Shown here piece by piece: positions 6,740 through 47,296 of a stretch of DNA of 47,754 nt. Position numbers and translations under genes: made by a program. The stretch's first letter is position 1. Each line of letters begins with the position of its first letter. The notes below the pieces were generated by a model. That model saw only the letters and a list, made by a program, of their open reading frames with translations, did not search any database and had not been told where the DNA came from. The stretch is from the IMG/VR virus record IMGVR_UViG_2778261224_000004, one strand, 5' to 3'. This DNA comes from a virus (Duplodnaviria > Heunggongvirae > Uroviricota > Caudoviricetes).

Positions 6740-7741
6740 TTAATACCCATTAATTACTCTTCGGACATCAATCGAGGTGGTATAACCACTAGTCCCAATT
6801 GAATGCACAGCTTTCGATATAAGATATTTTCCAGAAAATGAACCGAATCCCTCCAGATTTATAGTTACACCAGCTACCAATCTGGTGTCTCCAACCAATA
6901 CTAAAGATCCGGTATTTTGATATCTATTTTTAAGCCGCAAAGCAGCCTTTGCCTTACGTTTTGCTTCATCTAAATTAGCTACCAGTTTTCTTATCTTAAG
7001 ATTCGACCCTTCTTCTACGGATGGATCTACCCAAGTATACGAAAGCGACTTTCTTTTTTTAGGTACGCGATATTTGCACGTGCAACTTTTATACAAATCT
7101 GTAGATTGTGTGCTAAAGCTATATCTGATTATCTCATCAATACCTAACGTAAGCGTAGCGATAGGATCTTTTTGCTCAAACATCTCTTGAGCAAATATTA
7201 TTAATTGGCTATCAGTGACCTTTAACGACAACCCTTCATCCTGGCAAAGTCGATGGAGAAATTTTAAATCGCTTTCCTCCATTTGATCTTCACGCGCATA
7301 ATATGGATTACTATCACCATCAATAAGAAACAACAGTTCAAGGTTAGCTAATTTAGCTATAGAAGTTGCTATATCTTTAAGAGTTGTTTTTTCCCATGCA
7401 TTACTTTTTAAATCACGTCTAATGCCTGATGAAACAGGAACAGAAACAGCAGTTACCTCAACCACAGAAGGTGGTCCAGAGCAAGTTATGCCATCTACCT
7501 GGAATTTCCCGCACTCAAGGACGATTTGATTTATAGGCTTAAAGCTCAAATCAATAAAATCACCCTTTTTAGGTGTCCAGTCTCCAGACCATTTCCCATC
7601 ATCATTTTTTAATATAATAGAAATATCATCGACCTGACCATCTTCATTATCTGTATAAGACATTGACAAAACATCAGGTGACATATGAGCGGTAATATTT
7701 ACATTCTGATATATAACATCAAAAAGCGTTTTACGTAACAC
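6740..7741 (-). CDS. Tail/baseplate hub protein, P2 gpD-like (late control D family)
   Basis: 333-aa ORF downstream of tape measure and LysM-like gene; size and synteny. Confidence 0.5.
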   Translation of the reverse strand: MLRKTLFDVIYQNVNITAHMSPDVLSMSYTDNEDGQVDDISIILKNDDGKWSGDWTPKKGDFIDLSFKPINQIVLECGKFQVDGITCSGPPSVVEVTAVSVPVSSGIRRDLKSNAWEKTTLKDIATSIAKLANLELLFLIDGDSNPYYAREDQMEESDLKFLHRLCQDEGLSLKVTDSQLIIFAQEMFEQKDPIATLTLGIDEIIRYSFSTQSTDLYKSCTCKYRVPKKRKSLSYTWVDPSVEEGSNLKIRKLVANLDEAKRKAKAALRLKNRYQNTGSLVLVGDTRLVAGVTINLEGFGSFSGKYLISKAVHSIGTSGYTTSIDVRRVINGY

Positions 7742-23323: not shown

Positions 23324-24703
23324 CTACTTAATCAACGGCCGGAAAGCCGCCAGCACATCATCAGATCGTCCGATTGTTGAACCACCAGGCAACGGCAACT
23401 CAAACTCAAAACGAACAGCTTTCTCCAGACTCGCCCAACTAAGGGAATCATCGTTAATAACGTGCAAATACCAGCTCTTACAGTTGAATATTGACCGCTT
23501 AATCCTGAAACCATGTACACGACACAACTGCTTCACTTCATCATCAGAGTGAAACTTCTGGTAAAACCAGTGCCCCTTCCGGTACAACGCGGTAAAACCG
23601 TTATGATCAATAAAATAAAGCCGGCTTTTGGAACTCGCAGCTTGTGTTTGCTTCAGGACTGTTTCCAGCTCTCCACGGCTACGGCCAGAAAAGAATATTG
23701 ACCCACCAGCTTTACACAAGCCTTTCAGAACCGTCAGAACGGACCATTCAGCCTCGACACTATCGACCGAGTTCAAAACGCTATCGCAAATCACGTAGTC
23801 GTAACGCCCTCGCGTTTTTAAGTCGTCCACCAGCGTATCAATCATCCGGTTTGTTGCGGTCCTATCCAGAGTGTTTCCAGCGCCCTTACGGCGGAAAAGC
23901 TCGAGATCATGCAGGTTATATCCCTTTGCCCTGAGCATTCGCGCGTAGTCTCCCTGCCCCGAACCAAAATCAATTCCTCTTGGCGTCTTGGCAACGATCG
24001 GGAGGATCAACGACTCATACAGATTTGATTTCAGGCTGCCACCATTACGCAACCGCATAAGCTGCGCATACGTCTGGATGTATGTTGTTTTCTCCAGATG
24101 AGAATACTCAAATACACCATAAGTTTTATTCAGATAACTTTGGTATTTTTCCTTCTCAACATCAGGGATCACAAACACCGTTAGCGGTGTGCGCGTCATT
24201 TTCGCTGCTAATGCATACTGAGCACAGTGAATAACCTCACCAGACTGAGTAGCAACACAACCACCCCACGGACCATACTTGATAACCAGTTCCGCTATGT
24301 TCTTTCGAACATATGCCATTTTCGCGCGCATATTGCCTGAGATCTGGCTTGCCGATACCTGAACAAAACCATGCTTATCTTCCAGACCGGACACCCTGCA
24401 ACGCTCATCTCCGCTATCAAAATCCGTTCCGTTATGCAGTTGGTTAAACCGTACTTCGTCGTATACCGTCGTTTCACAGGGCAACACATACACCGCAGCA
24501 CGCGTTATTCCCAACTTACGTAGCGCCTTCGTCCTTTGGTGTCCCGCCACCAGCAAATCGCCGCGCACTATCAATGGCTTCACAAGCCCCAGCTCCCTGA
24601 CGCTTTCCGCCAGCCTCGCAAGATCATCCTCACCGATAAAACGCGGGTTATATTCCGCGCCGCGTAGGTGCGTTATGTCGTAATTGAGGTGAAGCATCAG
24701 CAC
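23324..24703 (-). CDS. ParB-like N-terminal domain fused to a class I SAM-dependent methyltransferase domain
   Basis: 459-aa ORF; N-terminal ParB-like ..LVAGHQRTKAL..; C-terminal Rossmann methyltransferase motif I GIDFGSGQGDYA and motif II-like YDYVICDSVL; no DPPY/DPPW or PCQ motif seen. Confidence 0.65.
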   Translation of the reverse strand: MLMLHLNYDITHLRGAEYNPRFIGEDDLARLAESVRELGLVKPLIVRGDLLVAGHQRTKALRKLGITRAAVYVLPCETTVYDEVRFNQLHNGTDFDSGDERCRVSGLEDKHGFVQVSASQISGNMRAKMAYVRKNIAELVIKYGPWGGCVATQSGEVIHCAQYALAAKMTRTPLTVFVIPDVEKEKYQSYLNKTYGVFEYSHLEKTTYIQTYAQLMRLRNGGSLKSNLYESLILPIVAKTPRGIDFGSGQGDYARMLRAKGYNLHDLELFRRKGAGNTLDRTATNRMIDTLVDDLKTRGRYDYVICDSVLNSVDSVEAEWSVLTVLKGLCKAGGSIFFSGRSRGELETVLKQTQAASSKSRLYFIDHNGFTALYRKGHWFYQKFHSDDEVKQLCRVHGFRIKRSIFNCKSWYLHVINDDSLSWASLEKAVRFEFELPLPGGSTIGRSDDVLAAFRPLIK

Positions 24704-25320
24704 ACCTCCCCAGCCAGCAATGCGGATACAAATCCGATATAGCTGCCATTATCATCAACATAACGAGACACCGCGCAGTCAAAACGATCCGCTTCCTCAT
24801 CCGTTGCCGGGATTTTATGACCTCCAAATGACAGGTACTGAACTTTTACGCCTGATTTGGCCTCATCCTTCTCAAATGGGATATCCATACCCTCTGTGTC
24901 ATCGTAGACCGCCGCACTCAATAAGTTATCCAGTTCGCGCTGAGTAAAACCAATTGAGTCCAGAGAAAAATCATCGGCCGCAAGATCTGCAAGCTCCGCG
25001 CTTAACAACTCTTCATCCCAACCAGCATTCAGCGGAATACGGTTGTCGGCCAGACGATATGCCTTCTTCTGATTCTCCGTTAGCCCAGCCAGAACAATGC
25101 AGGGAACATCATCCATCCCCAACTGAGTGGCCGCAGCAATTCGACCATGACCAGCAATTACAACGTTGTTCTCGTCTATCAGGATCGGATTAGTCCATCC
25201 GTACTCCTGTATGCTGGCAACAATCTGATCTACCTGCTCCACGGAGTGTGTGCGAGCGTTCTTTTCATAACCAATCAACACAGAAAGTGGTAAAGAAACC
25301 ACATTAAGTTGTTTTGTCAT
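24697..25320 (-). CDS. ParB-like nuclease domain (ParB/Srx fold) protein
   Basis: 207-aa ORF; ..YEKNARTHSVEQVDQIVASIQEYGWTNPILIDE..VIAGHGRIAAA.. Confidence 0.7.
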   Translation of the reverse strand: MTKQLNVVSLPLSVLIGYEKNARTHSVEQVDQIVASIQEYGWTNPILIDENNVVIAGHGRIAAATQLGMDDVPCIVLAGLTENQKKAYRLADNRIPLNAGWDEELLSAELADLAADDFSLDSIGFTQRELDNLLSAAVYDDTEGMDIPFEKDEAKSGVKVQYLSFGGHKIPATDEEADRFDCAVSRYVDDNGSYIGFVSALLAGEVC

Positions 25321-27481: not shown

Positions 27482-28069
27482 CTATGACACTTGCCAGAGA
27501 GCATCATGCAACTGGATACCTCCGTTGCACTGGTTGCCCCAGCCATGCCAGCCATCAGGTAAATCACCGCGAGCAAACAGCTCAATACGAGGAACATCGC
27601 CTAACAGCTTTACCAGCTTGTCACGGACCACATCAGGCTTCCGAGAATGCTCCAGACGAGGCGATGTAAACGACTGAATGATCCCCGCATCAAGACGTGT
27701 CGGTAGTTTGCCTTTCACTGCAAACAAGCAATCTTCACTGTTTGCACGAGTCATATGCCCCATCCCCATCACCAGCTTATCTGGTTGTCGGCTACCACAT
27801 TTGTTCCATGTGAAGCCCTTCATGGTCATCAGCCTGAATCCCCATGCTTTCACCACCAGCAACGCTTCTTCTGGCTGAGTCGGAACCCACCACATGGCCA
27901 ACAAACACGATTCAGGATTAGCAAGCTGCCAGACAGGAATACGAGCAATATCCTCAGCTTTCATCGTTGGATACTTAAAACCAGCGCCACGATTCCCATC
28001 CTTACACTTGTCTTTGTATTCCCAGGGGGGATCTGCATAAATCAGATTAAACAATGCAATTGCCTCCAT
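27482..28069 (-). CDS. MT-A70-family N6-adenine DNA methyltransferase
   Basis: 195-aa ORF with catalytic motif YADPPWEY near the N-terminus. Confidence 0.7.
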   Translation of the reverse strand: MEAIALFNLIYADPPWEYKDKCKDGNRGAGFKYPTMKAEDIARIPVWQLANPESCLLAMWWVPTQPEEALLVVKAWGFRLMTMKGFTWNKCGSRQPDKLVMGMGHMTRANSEDCLFAVKGKLPTRLDAGIIQSFTSPRLEHSRKPDVVRDKLVKLLGDVPRIELFARGDLPDGWHGWGNQCNGGIQLHDALWQVS

Positions 28070-30272: not shown

Positions 30273-30418
30273 TTCATAAAGCAACAAATTACGCGGTAAT
30301 CGCTTAACGCAGTTTTACTACGTTAAATGAAACACTACACCCAGTTACCACCTAAAACAAGGTTTCCCCATAAAAAAACCTTCATATCGTGGTTAATCGA
30401 TCAATAAAAAAGCAATGT

Positions 30419-36276: not shown

Positions 36277-36767
36277 TCCTCAAGCCTCCCAAGTGCTGAA
36301 CGCCGGGCGTTGCTAATCTCCTTATGAATCAGCTCGATATCGCTGGAATCTTTATTCTTAAGCTCCAGCACGGTAATCGCATCACGAACCTCTGAAACGG
36401 TTACGTGTGAGTGTTTCCAGCGAGCAATGAATCGCGGACCGCGTAGATTGCAACGCTCCGCAGGCATCCCCAGCTCAGAGAAAACCGCTTTCAGCCTTGA
36501 TAAGCAGTTAACAGGGAGATTCCCTTTGATCTTGTTCTGCCGAACCGATGTGCCATCGCTACGCTGGCGCTGACGTTCGGCAAAATCTGCCGCCCATTGC
36601 TGGACGTTAATCCGGCCTTCCGAATACGCCACCAGCAGCGTCAGGTTATCCGCACGAGGGAATCTCTCGAAGCGATACCAGGCACCAATCAGTGATGACG
36701 TAAAGCCAAACTTTCTGGCAACACCAATTTGGCCTCCATTTTCGTCAACCCACTCCTGAAAGGTCAT
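36273..36767 (-). CDS. Cro/CII-like early regulator (N-terminal HTH), divergent from repressor gene
   Basis: 164-aa ORF transcribed away from the CI-like gene; N-terminal ..GGQIGVARKFGFTSSLIGAWY.. HTH-like. Confidence 0.45.
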   Translation of the reverse strand: MTFQEWVDENGGQIGVARKFGFTSSLIGAWYRFERFPRADNLTLLVAYSEGRINVQQWAADFAERQRQRSDGTSVRQNKIKGNLPVNCLSRLKAVFSELGMPAERCNLRGPRFIARWKHSHVTVSEVRDAITVLELKNKDSSDIELIHKEISNARRSALGRLEE

Positions 36768-36786: not shown

Positions 36787-36904
36787 ACCACGATACGTGG
36801 TATTAAAACCACATATCGTGAGTTTTTCAATGGGCGAAACAAAAAATAACCTTCTATTTGTGGTCCACCTCTCGTCTTACCATGTGAAAACCACTAAATG
36901 TGGT
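36787..36904. promoter_or_regulatory. Immunity-region operators: palindromes ACCAC-N5-GTGGT between divergent repressor and Cro-like genes
   Basis: Sites at 36787-36801 (ACCACGATACGTGGT), 36808-36822 (imperfect) and 36890-36904 (ACCACTAAATGTGGT). Confidence 0.6.
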
Positions 36905-36941: not shown

Positions 36942-37598
36942 ATGAAAAGCAACGACGAGAACATCAAGAAAGAAATAGGTCTGCGCATTCAGACTCTACG
37001 GAAACAATCCGGCATGACTGCCGGAGATCTCCAGCAAGTCACTGGAATAGGCTTAAGCACCTTGCAGAACTATGAGGCCGGATTAAGACAACCATCTATA
37101 CCTGCCATCAAGAAAATCGCGCACGCCCTGAAAGCATCAGCGCCTTATATCGCGTGCTTAACAGATAACCCGTTCCCACCCCAGAATACTAACGCTCCTG
37201 TTATTCCTGGGCTTGTAGCTATAAAAAATGACATAGCATCGCACGCCGGAGAAAAGCCAGTGCTGGCGATAGAACAGGAGATTCTACGAAGCAAGAACAT
37301 CAACCCATCGTCTCTGTCAGTTCTCCAGAGCAACGATGAGTTAATGTCACCAACAATATCCCCAGGCTCCCAAGTCCTGATTAATACAGACGATACAGAG
37401 ATTCATGAGGGGATCTATGCCCTTGAAGACAGAAATGGCCTGGTTGTTTTGAGGCACTGTAGAGTCATACCGGGTGACAATGCTGTTATGCTGTCAACCG
37501 AAAGGGATGCTGAAATGAACACTAAGCATCTGAATAACGAGGAATTTAAGCGTTATAAAGTTCTTGGCCGCGTAGTTAGTGTTGTCAACTGGTTATGA
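36942..37598 (+). CDS. CI-like repressor (HTH_XRE N-terminus, LexA/S24-like C-terminal domain)
   Basis: 218-aa ORF; ..QTLRKQSGMTAGDLQQVTGIGLSTLQNYEAG.. HTH and S24-like C-terminal domain. Confidence 0.8.
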   Translation: MKSNDENIKKEIGLRIQTLRKQSGMTAGDLQQVTGIGLSTLQNYEAGLRQPSIPAIKKIAHALKASAPYIACLTDNPFPPQNTNAPVIPGLVAIKNDIASHAGEKPVLAIEQEILRSKNINPSSLSVLQSNDELMSPTISPGSQVLINTDDTEIHEGIYALEDRNGLVVLRHCRVIPGDNAVMLSTERDAEMNTKHLNNEEFKRYKVLGRVVSVVNWL

Positions 37599-37640: not shown

Positions 37641-37655
37641 ACCACATTTTGTGGT
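37641..37655. promoter_or_regulatory. Operator-like palindrome ACCACATTTTGTGGT between repressor gene and downstream ORF
   Basis: Perfect outer half-sites; adjacent TTGACA at 37657-37662. Confidence 0.45.
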
Positions 37656-37690: not shown

Positions 37691-38065
37691 ATGGAATTAC
37701 ATACAGCCAATAAAAACGAAACTCTGATCACTGCTGGAATCGAAATCCAAGCGTTGAACATAGCGATTGAGTGTATGTTATGCCAAATCATTGATAATGA
37801 GAAAGATATCGACTGGATAGAATCTATCCTTCATCTGGCATCAGAACAAAAAGTCTGCCTCAAAACGGCCTTACAATACGATGTGCCAGCGGTATCGAAG
37901 CTGTGCCAGCCATTGATGGCATATAACAGGGCTATTATTTCTGTATGCCTCATGATTCTTGATGAAACCCCCCCTCTTAGCGACCGCTCAGAAGCTGCTC
38001 TAACCCTCTCACGTAAACAGCGACAGCTAGCAAATCAACTGATATCAACGATAGCTGACCTCTGA
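37691..38065 (+). CDS. Hypothetical protein encoded directly downstream of the repressor
   Basis: 124-aa ORF followed by a hairpin terminator. Confidence 0.45.
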   Translation: MELHTANKNETLITAGIEIQALNIAIECMLCQIIDNEKDIDWIESILHLASEQKVCLKTALQYDVPAVSKLCQPLMAYNRAIISVCLMILDETPPLSDRSEAALTLSRKQRQLANQLISTIADL

Positions 38066-45852: not shown

Positions 45853-46830
45853 TTAATGTTGGAGTGATTTCCAGGTCTTTCTTAACCTGTTATAACGCTG
45901 CTCAACGAGGGATCGTAAATATGCAAGGTCAGCTCCAGGATACATGCCATCAGCAAATTCCTGGCTAACCTCTCTAGTGATTTGATGACGAAGTTCGGCC
46001 TCTCCCTTTTCCCGAACAAGACGCGCAGCTCTCTCCGCTGCTTTCTGTTTTGCCTTTATCTCTCTGGCCGTCTTCCTCTGATGCCATACATTCTCCATCT
46101 GCTCCTGAATAACAATACGCTTATAATCAGCCTCCGTTATCGCTTTTTTAAGCCGTTCGCTATTCTTCGCATTGAAGTAATTAAGTTTCTGGCTAACCGC
46201 ACGTCTCCATGCTTGTTCAGTAATACCAACGGTTTCCAGCAGTTGATCACGAATCTCTATTTTCGCTGGCCAATACTGTTTATTCACCCGATCCCAGCGA
46301 CGTTCATAATCAATAAAACCTAACGCTTTCAGTTGCGACAATGCCCTTGTACAGCGCGTTATAGACTTGTTCCCAGCTTCGGATACGGTAGACAGGCCGC
46401 AAAAATCAGCCAACGCCTCAGCACTGGCCAGAACCCGCTTAGAAATGATGTTTACATGGTGCAAAATCGCAGCGATCACAGCATTAATCGCCCGACGACG
46501 ATGCTCGTTTATCCGGCGCTTCCGCTCTGACGGTTGATTAACGTAGAACGCAACCTCACACGTAAGATCACGCCCATTAATGCGCTGTAAAGCATCAGAT
46601 AACACCAGCGGCAGCTTGTGCGTATGGTGCTTTGGAGGCTGGAACTCCGGCGACAAATTACAAACGTAAGCTGAACGTAGAGACGGCATTGGTCTATCCA
46701 TATGTTCGCTCTTGCGTCCACGGAAAACCAACGTATAATGGGAGTTGTCGAGGCGCCCATGGTTAGTTGTTGGTTTTCCGTGGATGTCGCAAGAAGCCCG
46801 CAGATTTATCTGCGGGCTTTTTGTTTCCAT
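45853..46830 (-). CDS. repA: Plasmid replication initiator RepA, IncFII (RepFIIA)-like; true start probably internal (Met 46701 or 46692)
   Basis: 325-aa ORF; ..FCGLSTVSEAGNKSITRCTRALSQLKALGFIDYERRWD.. resembles the RepA1 core as recalled; the N-terminal 43 codons overlap the antisense-RNA/leader structures. Confidence 0.6.
   Translation of the reverse strand: METKSPQINLRASCDIHGKPTTNHGRLDNSHYTLVFRGRKSEHMDRPMPSLRSAYVCNLSPEFQPPKHHTHKLPLVLSDALQRINGRDLTCEVAFYVNQPSERKRRINEHRRRAINAVIAAILHHVNIISKRVLASAEALADFCGLSTVSEAGNKSITRCTRALSQLKALGFIDYERRWDRVNKQYWPAKIEIRDQLLETVGITEQAWRRAVSQKLNYFNAKNSERLKKAITEADYKRIVIQEQMENVWHQRKTAREIKAKQKAAERAARLVREKGEAELRHQITREVSQEFADGMYPGADLAYLRSLVEQRYNRLRKTWKSLQH
46746..46826 (+). 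ncRNA. Candidate CopA-like antisense RNA opposite the repA leader
   Basis: Plus-strand TTGCGT-N16-TATAAT (46712-46739) and, about 80 nt downstream, terminator GCCCGCAGA-TTTA-TCTGCGGGC plus TTTTGTTT (46796-46826); perfect 15-bp inverted repeat 46718-46732 / 46768-46782 in the leader. Confidence 0.5.
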
Positions 46831-46866: not shown

Positions 46867-46881
46867 ACCACGTTACGTGGT
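46867..46881. promoter_or_regulatory. Operator-like palindrome ACCACGTTACGTGGT in the repA promoter region
   Basis: Same ACCAC-N5-GTGGT architecture as the immunity-region operators. Confidence 0.45.
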
Positions 46882-47296
46882 TTTAAGAGAACTCTACCAC
46901 AACACTTTCGGTCATGCACGAAGTCTCTCACTGATCGAACGATAATCCACCAGTAAAAGGATCTAAATTGGATCTCGTTTTGCGAGCATCATACTACTGG
47001 CCTAACTCCAGTCAATGATTCCCAGCCAGAAACCTGCGGTAAACTCATCGTTCAGCAATATGCTGTCCGGCTTCAAAGATAAGGTGACATCATCCCTTAA
47101 CAGCGCGGCCAGTTCAGTTAAAGGGCTGTTCTGATTTAATGCTGGCCACTCATACCTGGTAATAAGTGGTCAGTCTTAACACTCACCATTTGATTGCACC
47201 CGTGTTGACGATTTGTTACTGGATATCAGACACGCTGGATAGCCAGTAGAAACATACCATTAAAATTATTACAATAATTGGTCACATGATTATCTT

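What the first reader, a model, noticed from the sequence alone, without database searches (positions are those of the whole stretch)
46867..46881. Repressor-type operator copies at the repA promoter and the antirepressor region suggest lysogeny is wired to plasmid replication
The same palindrome architecture recurs at the repA promoter region (ACCACGTTACGTGGT, 46867-46881), upstream of the candidate regulatory RNA/antirepressor operon (CCCACGCTATGTGGT, 40153-40167, overlapping a promoter-like -35) and near 39488-39502 (ACCACATCTTGTGGC). If bound by the CI-like repressor, one protein would control immunity, antirepressor expression and plasmid replication, as in multi-operator phage-plasmid repressors.
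Basis: inference. Interest (0 to 1): 0.65.

Follow-up and report, generated by a model that had tools for sequence, protein, structure and literature searches.

The report
Phage repressor sites at plasmid replication gene
A 47.7-kb E. coli virus that persists as a plasmid carries binding sites for its own dormancy repressor in front of its replication-initiator gene and its anti-repressor operon. This links dormancy to DNA copying much as in phages N15 and P1, but with different parts.

Summary
The three palindromes are at the stated coordinates. They belong to a seven-site family, ACCAC-N5-GTGGT, that is far above chance: 8 core hits against 0.45 expected. The best copies sit in the divergent region between a CI-like repressor gene and the early operon.

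The repA site (46867-46881) is the strongest part of the finding. A matrix trained only on immunity-region sites scores it third best in the element. It is kept, with a variable centre, in Salmonella, Klebsiella, Yokenella-type, Citrobacter amalonaticus and Yersinia-phage relatives. In a heteroimmune Citrobacter freundii-type lineage (CI 27% identical) the immunity sites read TTGTAGT. There the homologous repA site has switched both half-sites to ACTAC-N5-GTAGC.

The ant-operon site (40153-40167) is probably real but lineage-specific. The 39488 site is weak and lies in a rare insert.

The likely mechanism is that CI represses a second repA promoter, taking the role of CopB in an IncFII-type replicon controlled by an antisense RNA. 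The logic is already known from N15/phiKO2 (CB at OL-repA) and P1 (C1 operators), so this is a new member of a known kind. No binding has been shown.

The parts
36942..37598 (+). CI-like repressor gene (218 aa): an HTH_3 domain plus a degenerate S24-like C-terminal domain.
   Evidence: Pfam HTH_3 E=4.5e-11. Peptidase_S24 scores 18.4 bits, below the 23.3 cutoff. Only distant Xre-type matches among solved structures.
36787..36801 (.). O1, ACCACGATACGTGGT. It lies immediately downstream of the -10 of the leftward early promoter and covers the expected transcription start.
   Evidence: 30.5 bits. Promoter coordinates: -35 TTGAAA at 36830-36825, -10 TTTAAT at 36807-36802, minus strand, read by eye.
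36808..36822 (.). O2, ACCACATATCGTGAG. It fills the 17-nt spacer of the early promoter, 21 bp centre to centre from O1.
   Evidence: 26.5 bits. The same O1/O2 pair is present in Salmonella, K. aerogenes and C. amalonaticus relatives.
36890..36904 (.). O3, ACCACTAAATGTGGT, 38 bp upstream of the cI start codon. Probably the autoregulation site.
   Evidence: 23.7 bits. Conserved in relatives.
37641..37655 (.). O4, ACCACATTTTGTGGT, between cI and orf124 (37691-38065). orf124 is followed by parA (38201-38869) and an 82-aa gene (38913-39161).
   Evidence: 32.0 bits, the best site. The heteroimmune Citrobacter-type loci carry their own motif (TGTAGT) at the equivalent place: L014 18827 and L022 13191.
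39488..39502 (.). O5, ACCACATCTTGTGGC. Doubtful member: the core matches 9 of 10 positions but the flanks are poor.
   Evidence: The matrix gives 9.3 bits, below the mean shuffle maximum. The surrounding 39374-39557 segment is found in about 7 of 72 E. coli family records. It is absent from the Salmonella and Citrobacter-type relatives.
40153..40167 (.). O6, CCCACGCTATGTGGT. It overlaps a candidate -35 (TTGTCT-17-TATTGA) about 32 bp upstream of the conserved TTGACA promoter of the isrK/C4/icd-like/ant operon.
   Evidence: 18.5 bits, above all 200 shuffles. Retained exactly at the homology boundary in variants with unrelated upstream DNA: L025 3884 and L026 3769. Also present in the Yersinia phage (L024 10730). 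C. amalonaticus has an analogous site (L028 11777, 16.5 bits). Absent in Salmonella.
40214..41835 (+). Anti-repressor (immI-like) operon:
- c4 a1/b1 target and isrK RNA (40214-40299)
- C4 antisense RNA (40324-40412)
- 63-aa icd-like orf (40466-40657)
- Ant, with ORF6N and Rha domains (40654-41835)
   Evidence: Rfam: C4 77.8 bits, isrK 65.8 bits, c4-a1b1 37.8 bits, the last below its gathering score. Pfam: ORF6N 5.6e-22, Phage_pRha 4.4e-12.
46867..46881 (.). O7, ACCACGTTACGTGGT, in the repA upstream/leader region. This is the focus of the finding.
   Evidence: - 28.5 bits with a matrix that never saw it.
- Best non-training hit in every homoimmune relative.
- Half-sites invariant and centre variable.
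- Replaced column for column by ACTACAAAACGTAGC in the heteroimmune lineage.
46891..46899 (-). Candidate promoter P2 of repA, an extended -10 reading TGgTAGAGT. O7 begins 9 nt downstream, so it would span about +2 to +17.
   Evidence: TGnTA(G/A)AGT is conserved in both immunity groups. Coordinates. The promoter function is an inference.
46988..47015 (-). Candidate upstream repA promoter P1, TTGACT-16-TATGAT.
   Evidence: Promoter scan, 10 of 12 matches. Conserved in Salmonella. An equivalent TTGACG-17-TAGAAT is present in the Citrobacter type.
45853..46701 (-). repA, an IncFII-family initiator, given here with the conserved start codon. RefSeq annotates a longer form starting at 46830.
   Evidence: Pfam IncFII_repA 1.2e-43. 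The ATG at 46830 is not conserved, and homologues are 277 aa.
46734..46826 (+). Candidate countertranscript (antisense copy-control RNA) against the repA leader. It has a conserved TATAAT at 46734-46739 and a terminator hairpin with T-run at 46796-46826.
   Evidence: The alignment fold shows a 15-pair terminator with 5 compensatory pairs. No Rfam family matches it; only sub-threshold noise hits.

Best explanation
The window is a complete circular 47,677-bp phage-plasmid. Its CI-like HTH repressor (36942-37598) recognises a 15-bp palindrome, ACCAC-N5-GTGGT, with A/T-rich flanks.

O1 and O2 occlude the leftward early promoter and O3 lies in front of cI. Further copies lie outside the immunity region: O4 before orf124-parA, O6 before the isrK/C4/ant operon, and O7 before repA.

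repA belongs to an IncFII-type replicon. It has an antisense countertranscript against its leader but no copB gene.

My reading is that O7 sits at about +2 to +17 of a second repA promoter with an extended -10 (P2). It also lies in the path of transcripts from an upstream promoter (P1).
- In the lysogen, CI would keep repA transcription low, so the antisense RNA can hold a low plasmid copy number.
- When CI is inactivated, presumably by Ant, P2 would open and RepA synthesis would rise for lytic replication. No second replication initiator is recognisable in the element.

What is shown: motif enrichment, geometry, conservation, and co-variation of the repA site with the immunity specificity.

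What is inferred: that CI is the binding protein, that P2 is a promoter, and the direction and size of any effect on copy number.
For: 1. Enrichment: 8 core hits against 0.45 expected. Five exact 15-mers are found.
2. Classic operator geometry at the early promoter: O2 in the spacer and O1 over the start.
3. O7 scores 28.5 bits with a matrix trained only on immunity-region sites. The shuffle maximum is 18.2.
4. O7 is the best non-training site in Salmonella, the Yersinia phage, K. aerogenes, L010 and C. amalonaticus relatives. These have RepA 81-85% and CI 60-66% identical. The half-sites are fixed and the central 5 nt vary.
5. The heteroimmune C. freundii-type loci L014 and L022 (CI 27% identical) have no ACCAC-N5-GTGGT.
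   - Their immunity region carries TTGTAGT sites.
   - The homologous repA-upstream position reads ACTACAAAACGTAGC.
   - This site shares the 12-mer TTTTGTAGTCAA with an immunity site.
   - It is the best non-training hit in both loci: 16.2 and 15.3 bits, against 9.7 and 9.6 for the next best.
6. The closest non-phage RepA relative (63% identical), on a conjugative plasmid, lacks the motif. It has two HTH genes upstream of repA instead.
7. TGnTA(G/A)AGT is conserved 8-10 nt upstream of the operator in both immunity groups.
8. The early operon holds no recognisable second initiator.
9. There is experimental precedent for this logic in N15/phiKO2 and P1.
Against: - No binding or expression data exist.
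- The best consensus repA promoter is about 107 nt upstream of O7. P2 has no convincing -35 and was not reported by the promoter scan.
- The flanks of O7 are also conserved, so conservation alone does not single out the palindrome.
- In the heteroimmune loci the site's score is only borderline against genome-wide shuffles: 95th percentile 15.0-16.1. Its weight comes from its position.
- The co-variation rests on two immunity groups only.
- O6 is missing from homoimmune Salmonella relatives, and O5 is not significant.
- Many early proteins have no known function, so a second initiator or a Cro-like binder cannot be excluded.
Confidence: 0.7

Rival explanations
1. The sites, including O7, are bound by a different protein that co-varies with the immunity module. 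Candidates are a Cro-like lytic repressor or one of the uncharacterised early or orf124 products. CI would not be the regulator of repA.
For: The first early gene (164 aa) and orf124 have no known function. They differ between the two immunity groups together with CI. In lambda-type switches Cro shares operators with CI.
Against: CI is the only recognisable DNA-binding protein flanking the operator cluster. A dimeric HTH_3 protein fits a 15-bp palindrome with half-sites one helical turn apart. In phiKO2, Cro does not bind the repA operators whereas CB does. This rival also does not change the conclusion that immunity and repA share a regulator.
Confidence: 0.12
2. O7 functions as an RNA hairpin in the repA mRNA leader, for example for stability or folding. 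Its likeness to the operators would be coincidental.
For: It lies downstream of the conserved P1 promoter, so it is probably transcribed. The two half-sites changed symmetrically between lineages, which would also preserve a stem.
Against: - Predicted hairpins are weak and no better than shuffles: -8.4, -4.7 and -8.1 kcal/mol, z-scores -1.25, -0.14 and -1.01.
- Only 4 pairs remain in the Citrobacter type.
- In each lineage the changed bases are exactly those of that lineage's immunity operators, which an RNA stem does not explain.
Confidence: 0.05
3. O7 (like O4 to O6) is a distal auxiliary operator. It would serve only to raise the local repressor concentration or to loop to the immunity region, with no direct effect on repA expression.
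For: Long-range cooperativity of dispersed operators is known for lambda CI and was raised as a possibility for phiKO2 CB.
Against: O7 is a single site about 10 kb from O1-O3. Its position is fixed relative to repA-leader landmarks across lineages: 8-10 nt after TGnTAGAGT. That argues for a local role.
Confidence: 0.08
4. The dispersed copies are chance matches to a short palindrome.
For: One perfect copy (7461-7475) lies inside a tail gene and is not conserved in Salmonella. O5 scores at chance level.
Against: The enrichment statistics, the conservation and the co-variation exclude chance for O7, and make it unlikely for O4 and O6.
Confidence: 0.02

Closest known systems
Telomere phages N15 / phiKO2: prophage repressor CB with OR operators at cB-cro and OL operators at the repA promoter
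   Same: One prophage repressor binds operators in the divergent immunity region and also operators upstream of the plasmid replication gene. In N15 this represses repA and lowers copy number, and repA serves the plasmid prophage (PMC4997575). An antirepressor route to induction and a C4-type RNA are also features of that group; this last point is from my own knowledge.
   Different: N15 has a linear genome with a large primase-helicase RepA and two adjacent OL sites overlapping the promoter. Here the plasmid is circular and RepA is of IncFII type (Pfam PF02387). There is an antisense countertranscript and a single site after an extended -10-like element. There is no sequence relationship of operators: T-A-N10-T-A 16-mers against ACCAC-N5-GTGGT.
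Phage P1: C1 repressor with about 22 dispersed operators, including control of repL; immI region with c4 RNA and Ant
   Same: Both are phage-plasmids in which one repressor controls many scattered operators, including a replication function. Both have an antirepressor operon governed by a C4 antisense RNA (PMC8546580; Rfam C4 hit here). The O6 arrangement, a repressor-controlled promoter upstream of a second promoter, resembles P1's C1-controlled and constitutive immI promoters; that detail is from my own knowledge and was not checked.
   Different: P1 C1 operators are asymmetric 17-mers (ATTGCTCTAATAAATTT). In P1, C1 controls the separate lytic replicon repL, not the plasmid initiator repA. 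Here the operator is a palindrome, the target is the only recognisable initiator, and CI is an HTH_3 protein.
IncFII plasmid R1 copy control: CopA antisense RNA plus CopB repressor of the PrepA promoter
   Same: Both have a RepA of the IncFII family, a countertranscript against the repA leader, and two tandem repA promoters. The downstream promoter carries a dyad-symmetric repressor site. The R1 scheme is from established knowledge; CopB is noted as the transcriptional repressor in PMC5717011, listed.
   Different: There is no copB gene between P1 and repA here. The dyad has the sequence of the phage immunity operators. The repressor would therefore report the lysogenic state rather than plasmid copy number.

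Membership tests
Prophage-repressor control of the plasmid-prophage replication gene (N15/phiKO2 CB-OL-repA logic) | Repressor gene flanked by multiple operators in a divergent immunity region | tested here: met
   O1-O3 lie between cI and the early operon, with O2 in the promoter spacer and O1 over the start.
Prophage-repressor control of the plasmid-prophage replication gene (N15/phiKO2 CB-OL-repA logic) | Operators of the same specificity upstream of the replication initiator gene | tested here: met
   O7 scores 28.5 bits with an immunity-trained matrix. It is conserved and co-varies with the immunity specificity.
Prophage-repressor control of the plasmid-prophage replication gene (N15/phiKO2 CB-OL-repA logic) | Operator overlaps the repA promoter | tested here: inconclusive
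   The best sigma-70-like match is about 107 nt upstream. A conserved extended -10-like TGnTAGAGT lies 9 nt upstream of O7, but no transcription start data exist.
Prophage-repressor control of the plasmid-prophage replication gene (N15/phiKO2 CB-OL-repA logic) | Repressor binding demonstrated, and copy number raised without the repressor | not testable with these tools
   Needs EMSA or footprinting and copy-number assays.
Prophage-repressor control of the plasmid-prophage replication gene (N15/phiKO2 CB-OL-repA logic) | Homology of the parts to N15 (RepA primase-helicase, CB) | tested here: not met
   RepA is Pfam IncFII_repA, about 280 aa. CI has only generic HTH_3 similarity. The element therefore works like N15 but is not a member of the N15 family.
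IncFII-type (R1-like) replicon | RepA of Pfam family PF02387 | tested here: met
   E=1.2e-43, residues 52-318 of the long form.
IncFII-type (R1-like) replicon | Antisense countertranscript against the repA leader | tested here: met
   A conserved TATAAT and an antisense-oriented terminator with 5 compensatory pairs. Expression is not shown and there is no Rfam family hit.
IncFII-type (R1-like) replicon | copB repressor gene upstream of repA | tested here: not met
   No ORF of at least 60 aa on the repA strand between 46830 and 47290, and none annotated in relatives.
P1-type immI module (c4 antisense RNA - icd - ant) | C4 antisense RNA | tested here: met
   Rfam RF01695, 77.8 bits against a gathering score of 45.
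P1-type immI module (c4 antisense RNA - icd - ant) | Upstream a1/b1 target element | tested here: inconclusive
   RF03163 scores 37.8 bits against a gathering score of 46.7. It overlaps an isrK hit of 65.8 bits.
P1-type immI module (c4 antisense RNA - icd - ant) | Control by a P1 C1-type asymmetric 17-bp operator | tested here: not met
   The operator here is the palindrome ACCAC-N5-GTGGT. The P1 consensus is ATTGCTCTAATAAATTT.
Lambda/LexA-type self-cleaving repressor (HTH plus S24 peptidase) | N-terminal HTH DNA-binding domain | tested here: met
   HTH_3, E=4.5e-11.
Lambda/LexA-type self-cleaving repressor (HTH plus S24 peptidase) | Functional S24 peptidase domain with catalytic Ser/Lys | tested here: inconclusive
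   Peptidase_S24 scores 18.4 bits, below the 23.3 cutoff. The catalytic residues were not rigorously checked.

The most novel reading that the evidence does not exclude
In this widespread family of E. coli phage-plasmids, the phage immunity repressor has taken over the CopB slot of an IncFII-type replicon. A single initiator gene would then be run in two modes. With CI bound at O7, the antisense RNA limits the element to low-copy plasmid replication. Once Ant inactivates CI, replication runs away for lytic growth. The operator cassette at repA is exchanged together with the immunity module when lineages change immunity type.
Probability: 0.45. Interest if true: 0.55.

Novelty: new member of a known kind. 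Interest (0 to 1): 0.45.

Why it matters
These 44-50 kb elements are common in E. coli. PLSDB holds 102 records with a match to the repA region, 58 of them covering most of it, and 72 of 5,426 complete E. coli genomes carry the region tested. One of these is the reference strain ATCC 25922. Related elements occur in Salmonella, Citrobacter, Klebsiella and Yersinia, where they have been isolated as infective phages. I found no published study of their regulation.

If CI sets repA expression, then immunity, stable inheritance and the switch to lytic replication share one input. That would explain how a phage-plasmid with a single recognisable initiator changes replication mode. It predicts that superinfection immunity and plasmid incompatibility or copy number are coupled. 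It also gives a compact repressor/operator pair for controlling IncFII-type vectors. The principle is established in N15 and P1, so the gain is breadth and a new combination of parts rather than a new concept.

Tried and rejected
- First motif search, CCAC-N7-GTGG: wrong spacing, 0 hits. Corrected to N5.
- LexA boxes (CTGT-N8-ACAG): not enriched, and none at the ant or repA promoters. One 1-mismatch hit at 39522-39537 lies near O5.
- Scan of species-representative genomes with a RepA profile: only an irrelevant Streptomyces hit.
- Search of PLSDB for the Citrobacter freundii-type replicon: nothing beyond weak repA cross-hits.
- All 58 Escherichia/Klebsiella family members found in PLSDB share the same cI at 97.7% identity or more. 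No heteroimmune variant was available there.
- The CI homologue search returned only homoimmune types at 60-66% identity. A third immunity group was not found.
- Several contigs break about 2.8 kb beyond repA, so their immunity regions could not be paired.
- The conjugative-plasmid relative L016 showed no operator-like dyad at the O7-equivalent position.
- Rfam gave no family for the repA countertranscript; the Thr_leader, CsrC and RNAI hits are sub-threshold noise.
- The P1 genome paper (PMC523184) is not held. The P1 Op51 and Op53 details therefore rest on memory and.

Full report
**What the window is**

The first 77 nt repeat the last 77 nt, so the window is one complete circular element of 47,677 bp. 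It is 99.9% identical over its last 8.7 kb to E. coli plasmids NZ_CP099756.1 and NZ_CP064105.1. It is about 97% identical there to the isolated Yersinia phages vB_YpM_39/41/44.

The annotation of the near-identical plasmid shows a full set of phage genes: terminase, portal, capsid, contractile tail and lysis. It also shows ParA, RepA and toxin-antitoxin genes. The element is therefore a phage-plasmid.

**The observation**

The core CCAC-N5-GTGG occurs 8 times against 0.45 expected, and no shuffle of 100 reached 8.

Six of the eight core hits, plus one 2-mismatch copy, lie in non-coding DNA between 36.7 and 46.9 kb:
- O1 36787-36801
- O2 36808-36822
- O3 36890-36904
- O4 37641-37655
- O5 39488-39502
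- O6 40153-40167
- O7 46867-46881

O1 to O3 lie between a leftward early operon (start codon at 36767) and a rightward 218-aa gene. That gene has an HTH_3 domain and a degenerate S24-like C-terminal part.

On the minus strand I read an early promoter, TTGAAA-17-TTTAAT. O2 fills its spacer, and O1 starts directly after the -10. This is textbook repressor geometry.

**Is the repA site one of them?**

I trained a 23-bp matrix on immunity-region sites only, from the window and two Salmonella relatives, and scanned the whole window.

| Site | Score (bits) |
|---|---|
| O7 | 28.5 (third best overall, above two training sites) |
| O6 | 18.5 |
| O5 | 9.3 |
| Largest maximum over 200 shuffles | 18.2 |

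The replicon DNA is found almost only in 44-50 kb phage-plasmids.

In every homoimmune relative examined, the best non-training hit is the site upstream of repA. These relatives are:
- Salmonella (repA DNA about 76% identical)
- K. aerogenes
- an IMG/VR contig (L010)
- C. amalonaticus
- the Yersinia phage

The half-sites never change. The central five bases read GTTAC, GTTGT, GATGT or GATGC, depending on the relative.

**Co-variation with immunity type**

RepA homologues at about 60% identity led to a second group of phage-plasmids. Examples are C. freundii UFWO01000003.1 (L014) and IMG/VR contig L022. They have a Mu-like tail module but the same gene order: repA, toxin-antitoxin genes, ant, parA, a 128-aa orf, cI and the early operon.

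Their CI is only 27% identical to the window's CI. They contain no ACCAC-N5-GTGGT at all. Instead, their cI-early intergenic region carries four to five TTGTAGT sites. One more sits at the O4-equivalent place.

In an alignment of the repA upstream regions, the window's ACCACGTAACGTGGT lines up column for column with ACTACAAAACGTAGC. In both, the site comes just after the shared block TGnTAGAGTTC. Both half-sites changed symmetrically, to the bases used by that lineage's own immunity operators. The site even shares the 12-mer TTTTGTAGTCAA with one of those operators.

A matrix trained on the L014 and L022 immunity sites ranks the repA-upstream site as the best non-training hit in both loci. It scores 16.2 and 15.3 bits, against 9.7 and 9.6 for the next best. 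Genome-wide these scores are only borderline against shuffles. What carries the argument is that the top hit falls on the position homologous to O7.

The nearest non-phage RepA relative (63% identical) is on a conjugative plasmid. It lacks the motif and has two small HTH genes in front of repA instead.

An RNA-hairpin reading of the palindrome is weak. Predicted stabilities are no better than shuffles, and only four pairs remain in the second group.

**How repA is organised**

- **Start codon.** The RefSeq start at 46830 is not conserved. The conserved start is 46701, which gives a protein of about 280 aa like the 277-aa homologues.
- **Countertranscript.** Antisense to the leader there is a conserved TATAAT (46734-46739) and a terminator hairpin with a T-run (46796-46826). 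The hairpin keeps 15 pairs, with 5 compensatory changes across lineages. This fits a CopA-like countertranscript, as expected for an IncFII-family RepA.
- **Promoters.** A conserved sigma-70-like promoter, TTGACT-16-TATGAT (47015-46988), lies about 107 nt upstream of O7. Nine nucleotides upstream of O7 lies TGgTAGAGT (46899-46891), an extended -10-like element kept as TGnTA(G/A)AGT in both immunity groups.
- **No copB.** There is no copB-like ORF in this interval.

I therefore propose two tandem promoters, as in plasmid R1, with the phage repressor occupying the role of CopB at the downstream one. The repressor would also stand in the path of upstream transcripts. No helicase or second initiator is recognisable elsewhere. 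One early protein has a partial 'primase' PHROG match, and many early proteins are of unknown function. Derepression of repA on induction would supply lytic replication. This mechanism is inference.

**The antirepressor site, O6**

Downstream of O6, Rfam finds a c4-a1b1-like target with isrK (40214-40299) and a C4 antisense RNA (40324-40412). These are followed by a 63-aa orf and an ORF6N/Rha antirepressor.

Evidence that O6 belongs to the ant-operon control region:
- It overlaps a candidate -35 (TTGTCT-17-TATTGA) upstream of a conserved TTGACA promoter.
- In E. coli variants whose upstream DNA is unrelated, homology begins exactly at O6. This holds even where the C4/isrK specificity differs.
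- C. amalonaticus has an analogous site about 37 bp before the TTGACA promoter.

Evidence that O6 is lineage-specific:
- The homoimmune Salmonella relatives lack it. They lack the whole 39374-40190 block and keep only the TTGACA promoter.
- The C. freundii-type loci show no operator there.

O6 is thus plausible but lineage-specific.

**The third site, O5**

O5 matches 9 of 10 core positions but fails the matrix test. It lies in a 184-bp segment present in only about 7 of 72 E. coli family records. I could find no convincing promoter around it. It should not be counted as evidence.

**Comparison with what is known**

- **N15 and phiKO2.** CB binds three OR operators and two OL operators at the repA promoter. 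It represses repA and lowers copy number (PMC4997575).
- **P1.** C1 binds 22 dispersed operators, including those controlling the lytic replication gene repL. Ant is held down by c4 RNA (PMC8546580).

The element here follows the same logic with unrelated parts. It has an IncFII-type initiator with antisense control, an Xre-type CI, a palindromic operator and a single site at repA. I found no paper on this family.

**Verdict**

This is a new member of a known kind of circuit. It is of moderate interest because the family is common and unstudied, and because the predictions are easy to test.

Noticed in passing
39559-39855 (-) and 40030-40135 (+): A ryfA/TimP-like type I toxin RNA (Rfam RF00126, 142 bits) lies next to a divergent small-RNA candidate with its own promoter-like site and terminator. 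The whole 39374-40190 block is missing from Salmonella relatives and sits elsewhere in the Citrobacter-type element (L014 14317-14949).
   Followed up: partly
36849-36864 and 30378-30393: A hybrid motif, ACCTTC-N5-GTGGT, occurs between O2 and O3 and again upstream of the holin/lysis genes. Both copies are conserved in Salmonella, K. aerogenes (L027 9906, 1360) and C. amalonaticus (L028 8442, 1561). It may be a site for a second regulator or a weak CI site.
   Followed up: partly
25277-25312: Two one-mismatch operator-like sites lie 21 bp apart inside the first 14 codons of a ParB/Srx-like gene (24697-25320, minus strand). Part of this is conserved in Salmonella (L002 36180/36201). Coding constraint cannot be separated from operator function.
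   Followed up: no
46949-46966 (- strand GAGATCCAATTTAGATCC): Two GATC sites 11 bp apart lie between the two candidate repA promoters. A GATC cluster sits at the same place in the Citrobacter-type loci. The element also encodes an MT-A70 methyltransferase (27482-28069). This raises the possibility of methylation-sensitive control.
   Followed up: no
46702-46830: The RefSeq repA start (46830) is not conserved in relatives and would run through the countertranscript terminator. The conserved start is 46701.
   Followed up: yes
40214-40299; L026 3800-3900: The isrK hit overlaps the c4 a1/b1 target hit. E. coli variant FDAARGOS_1337 keeps O6 and the promoter but carries different a/b and C4 loop sequences. 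Antisense specificity therefore varies independently of the repressor operator.
   Followed up: partly
7461-7475: A perfect ACCACAGAAGGTGGT lies inside a tail/baseplate gene. It has poor flanks, scores low with the matrix and is absent from Salmonella relatives. It is probably a chance or non-functional copy.
   Followed up: partly
L016 8798-8834: The conjugative-plasmid relative of this replicon has a long palindrome made of LexA-box-like CTGTATAAA...ACAG repeats, upstream of two HTH genes that precede repA.
   Followed up: no
L014 9516-10004: In Citrobacter-type elements a 162-aa ORF with weak IncFII_repA similarity is inserted between the repA leader and the 277-aa repA gene.
   Followed up: no
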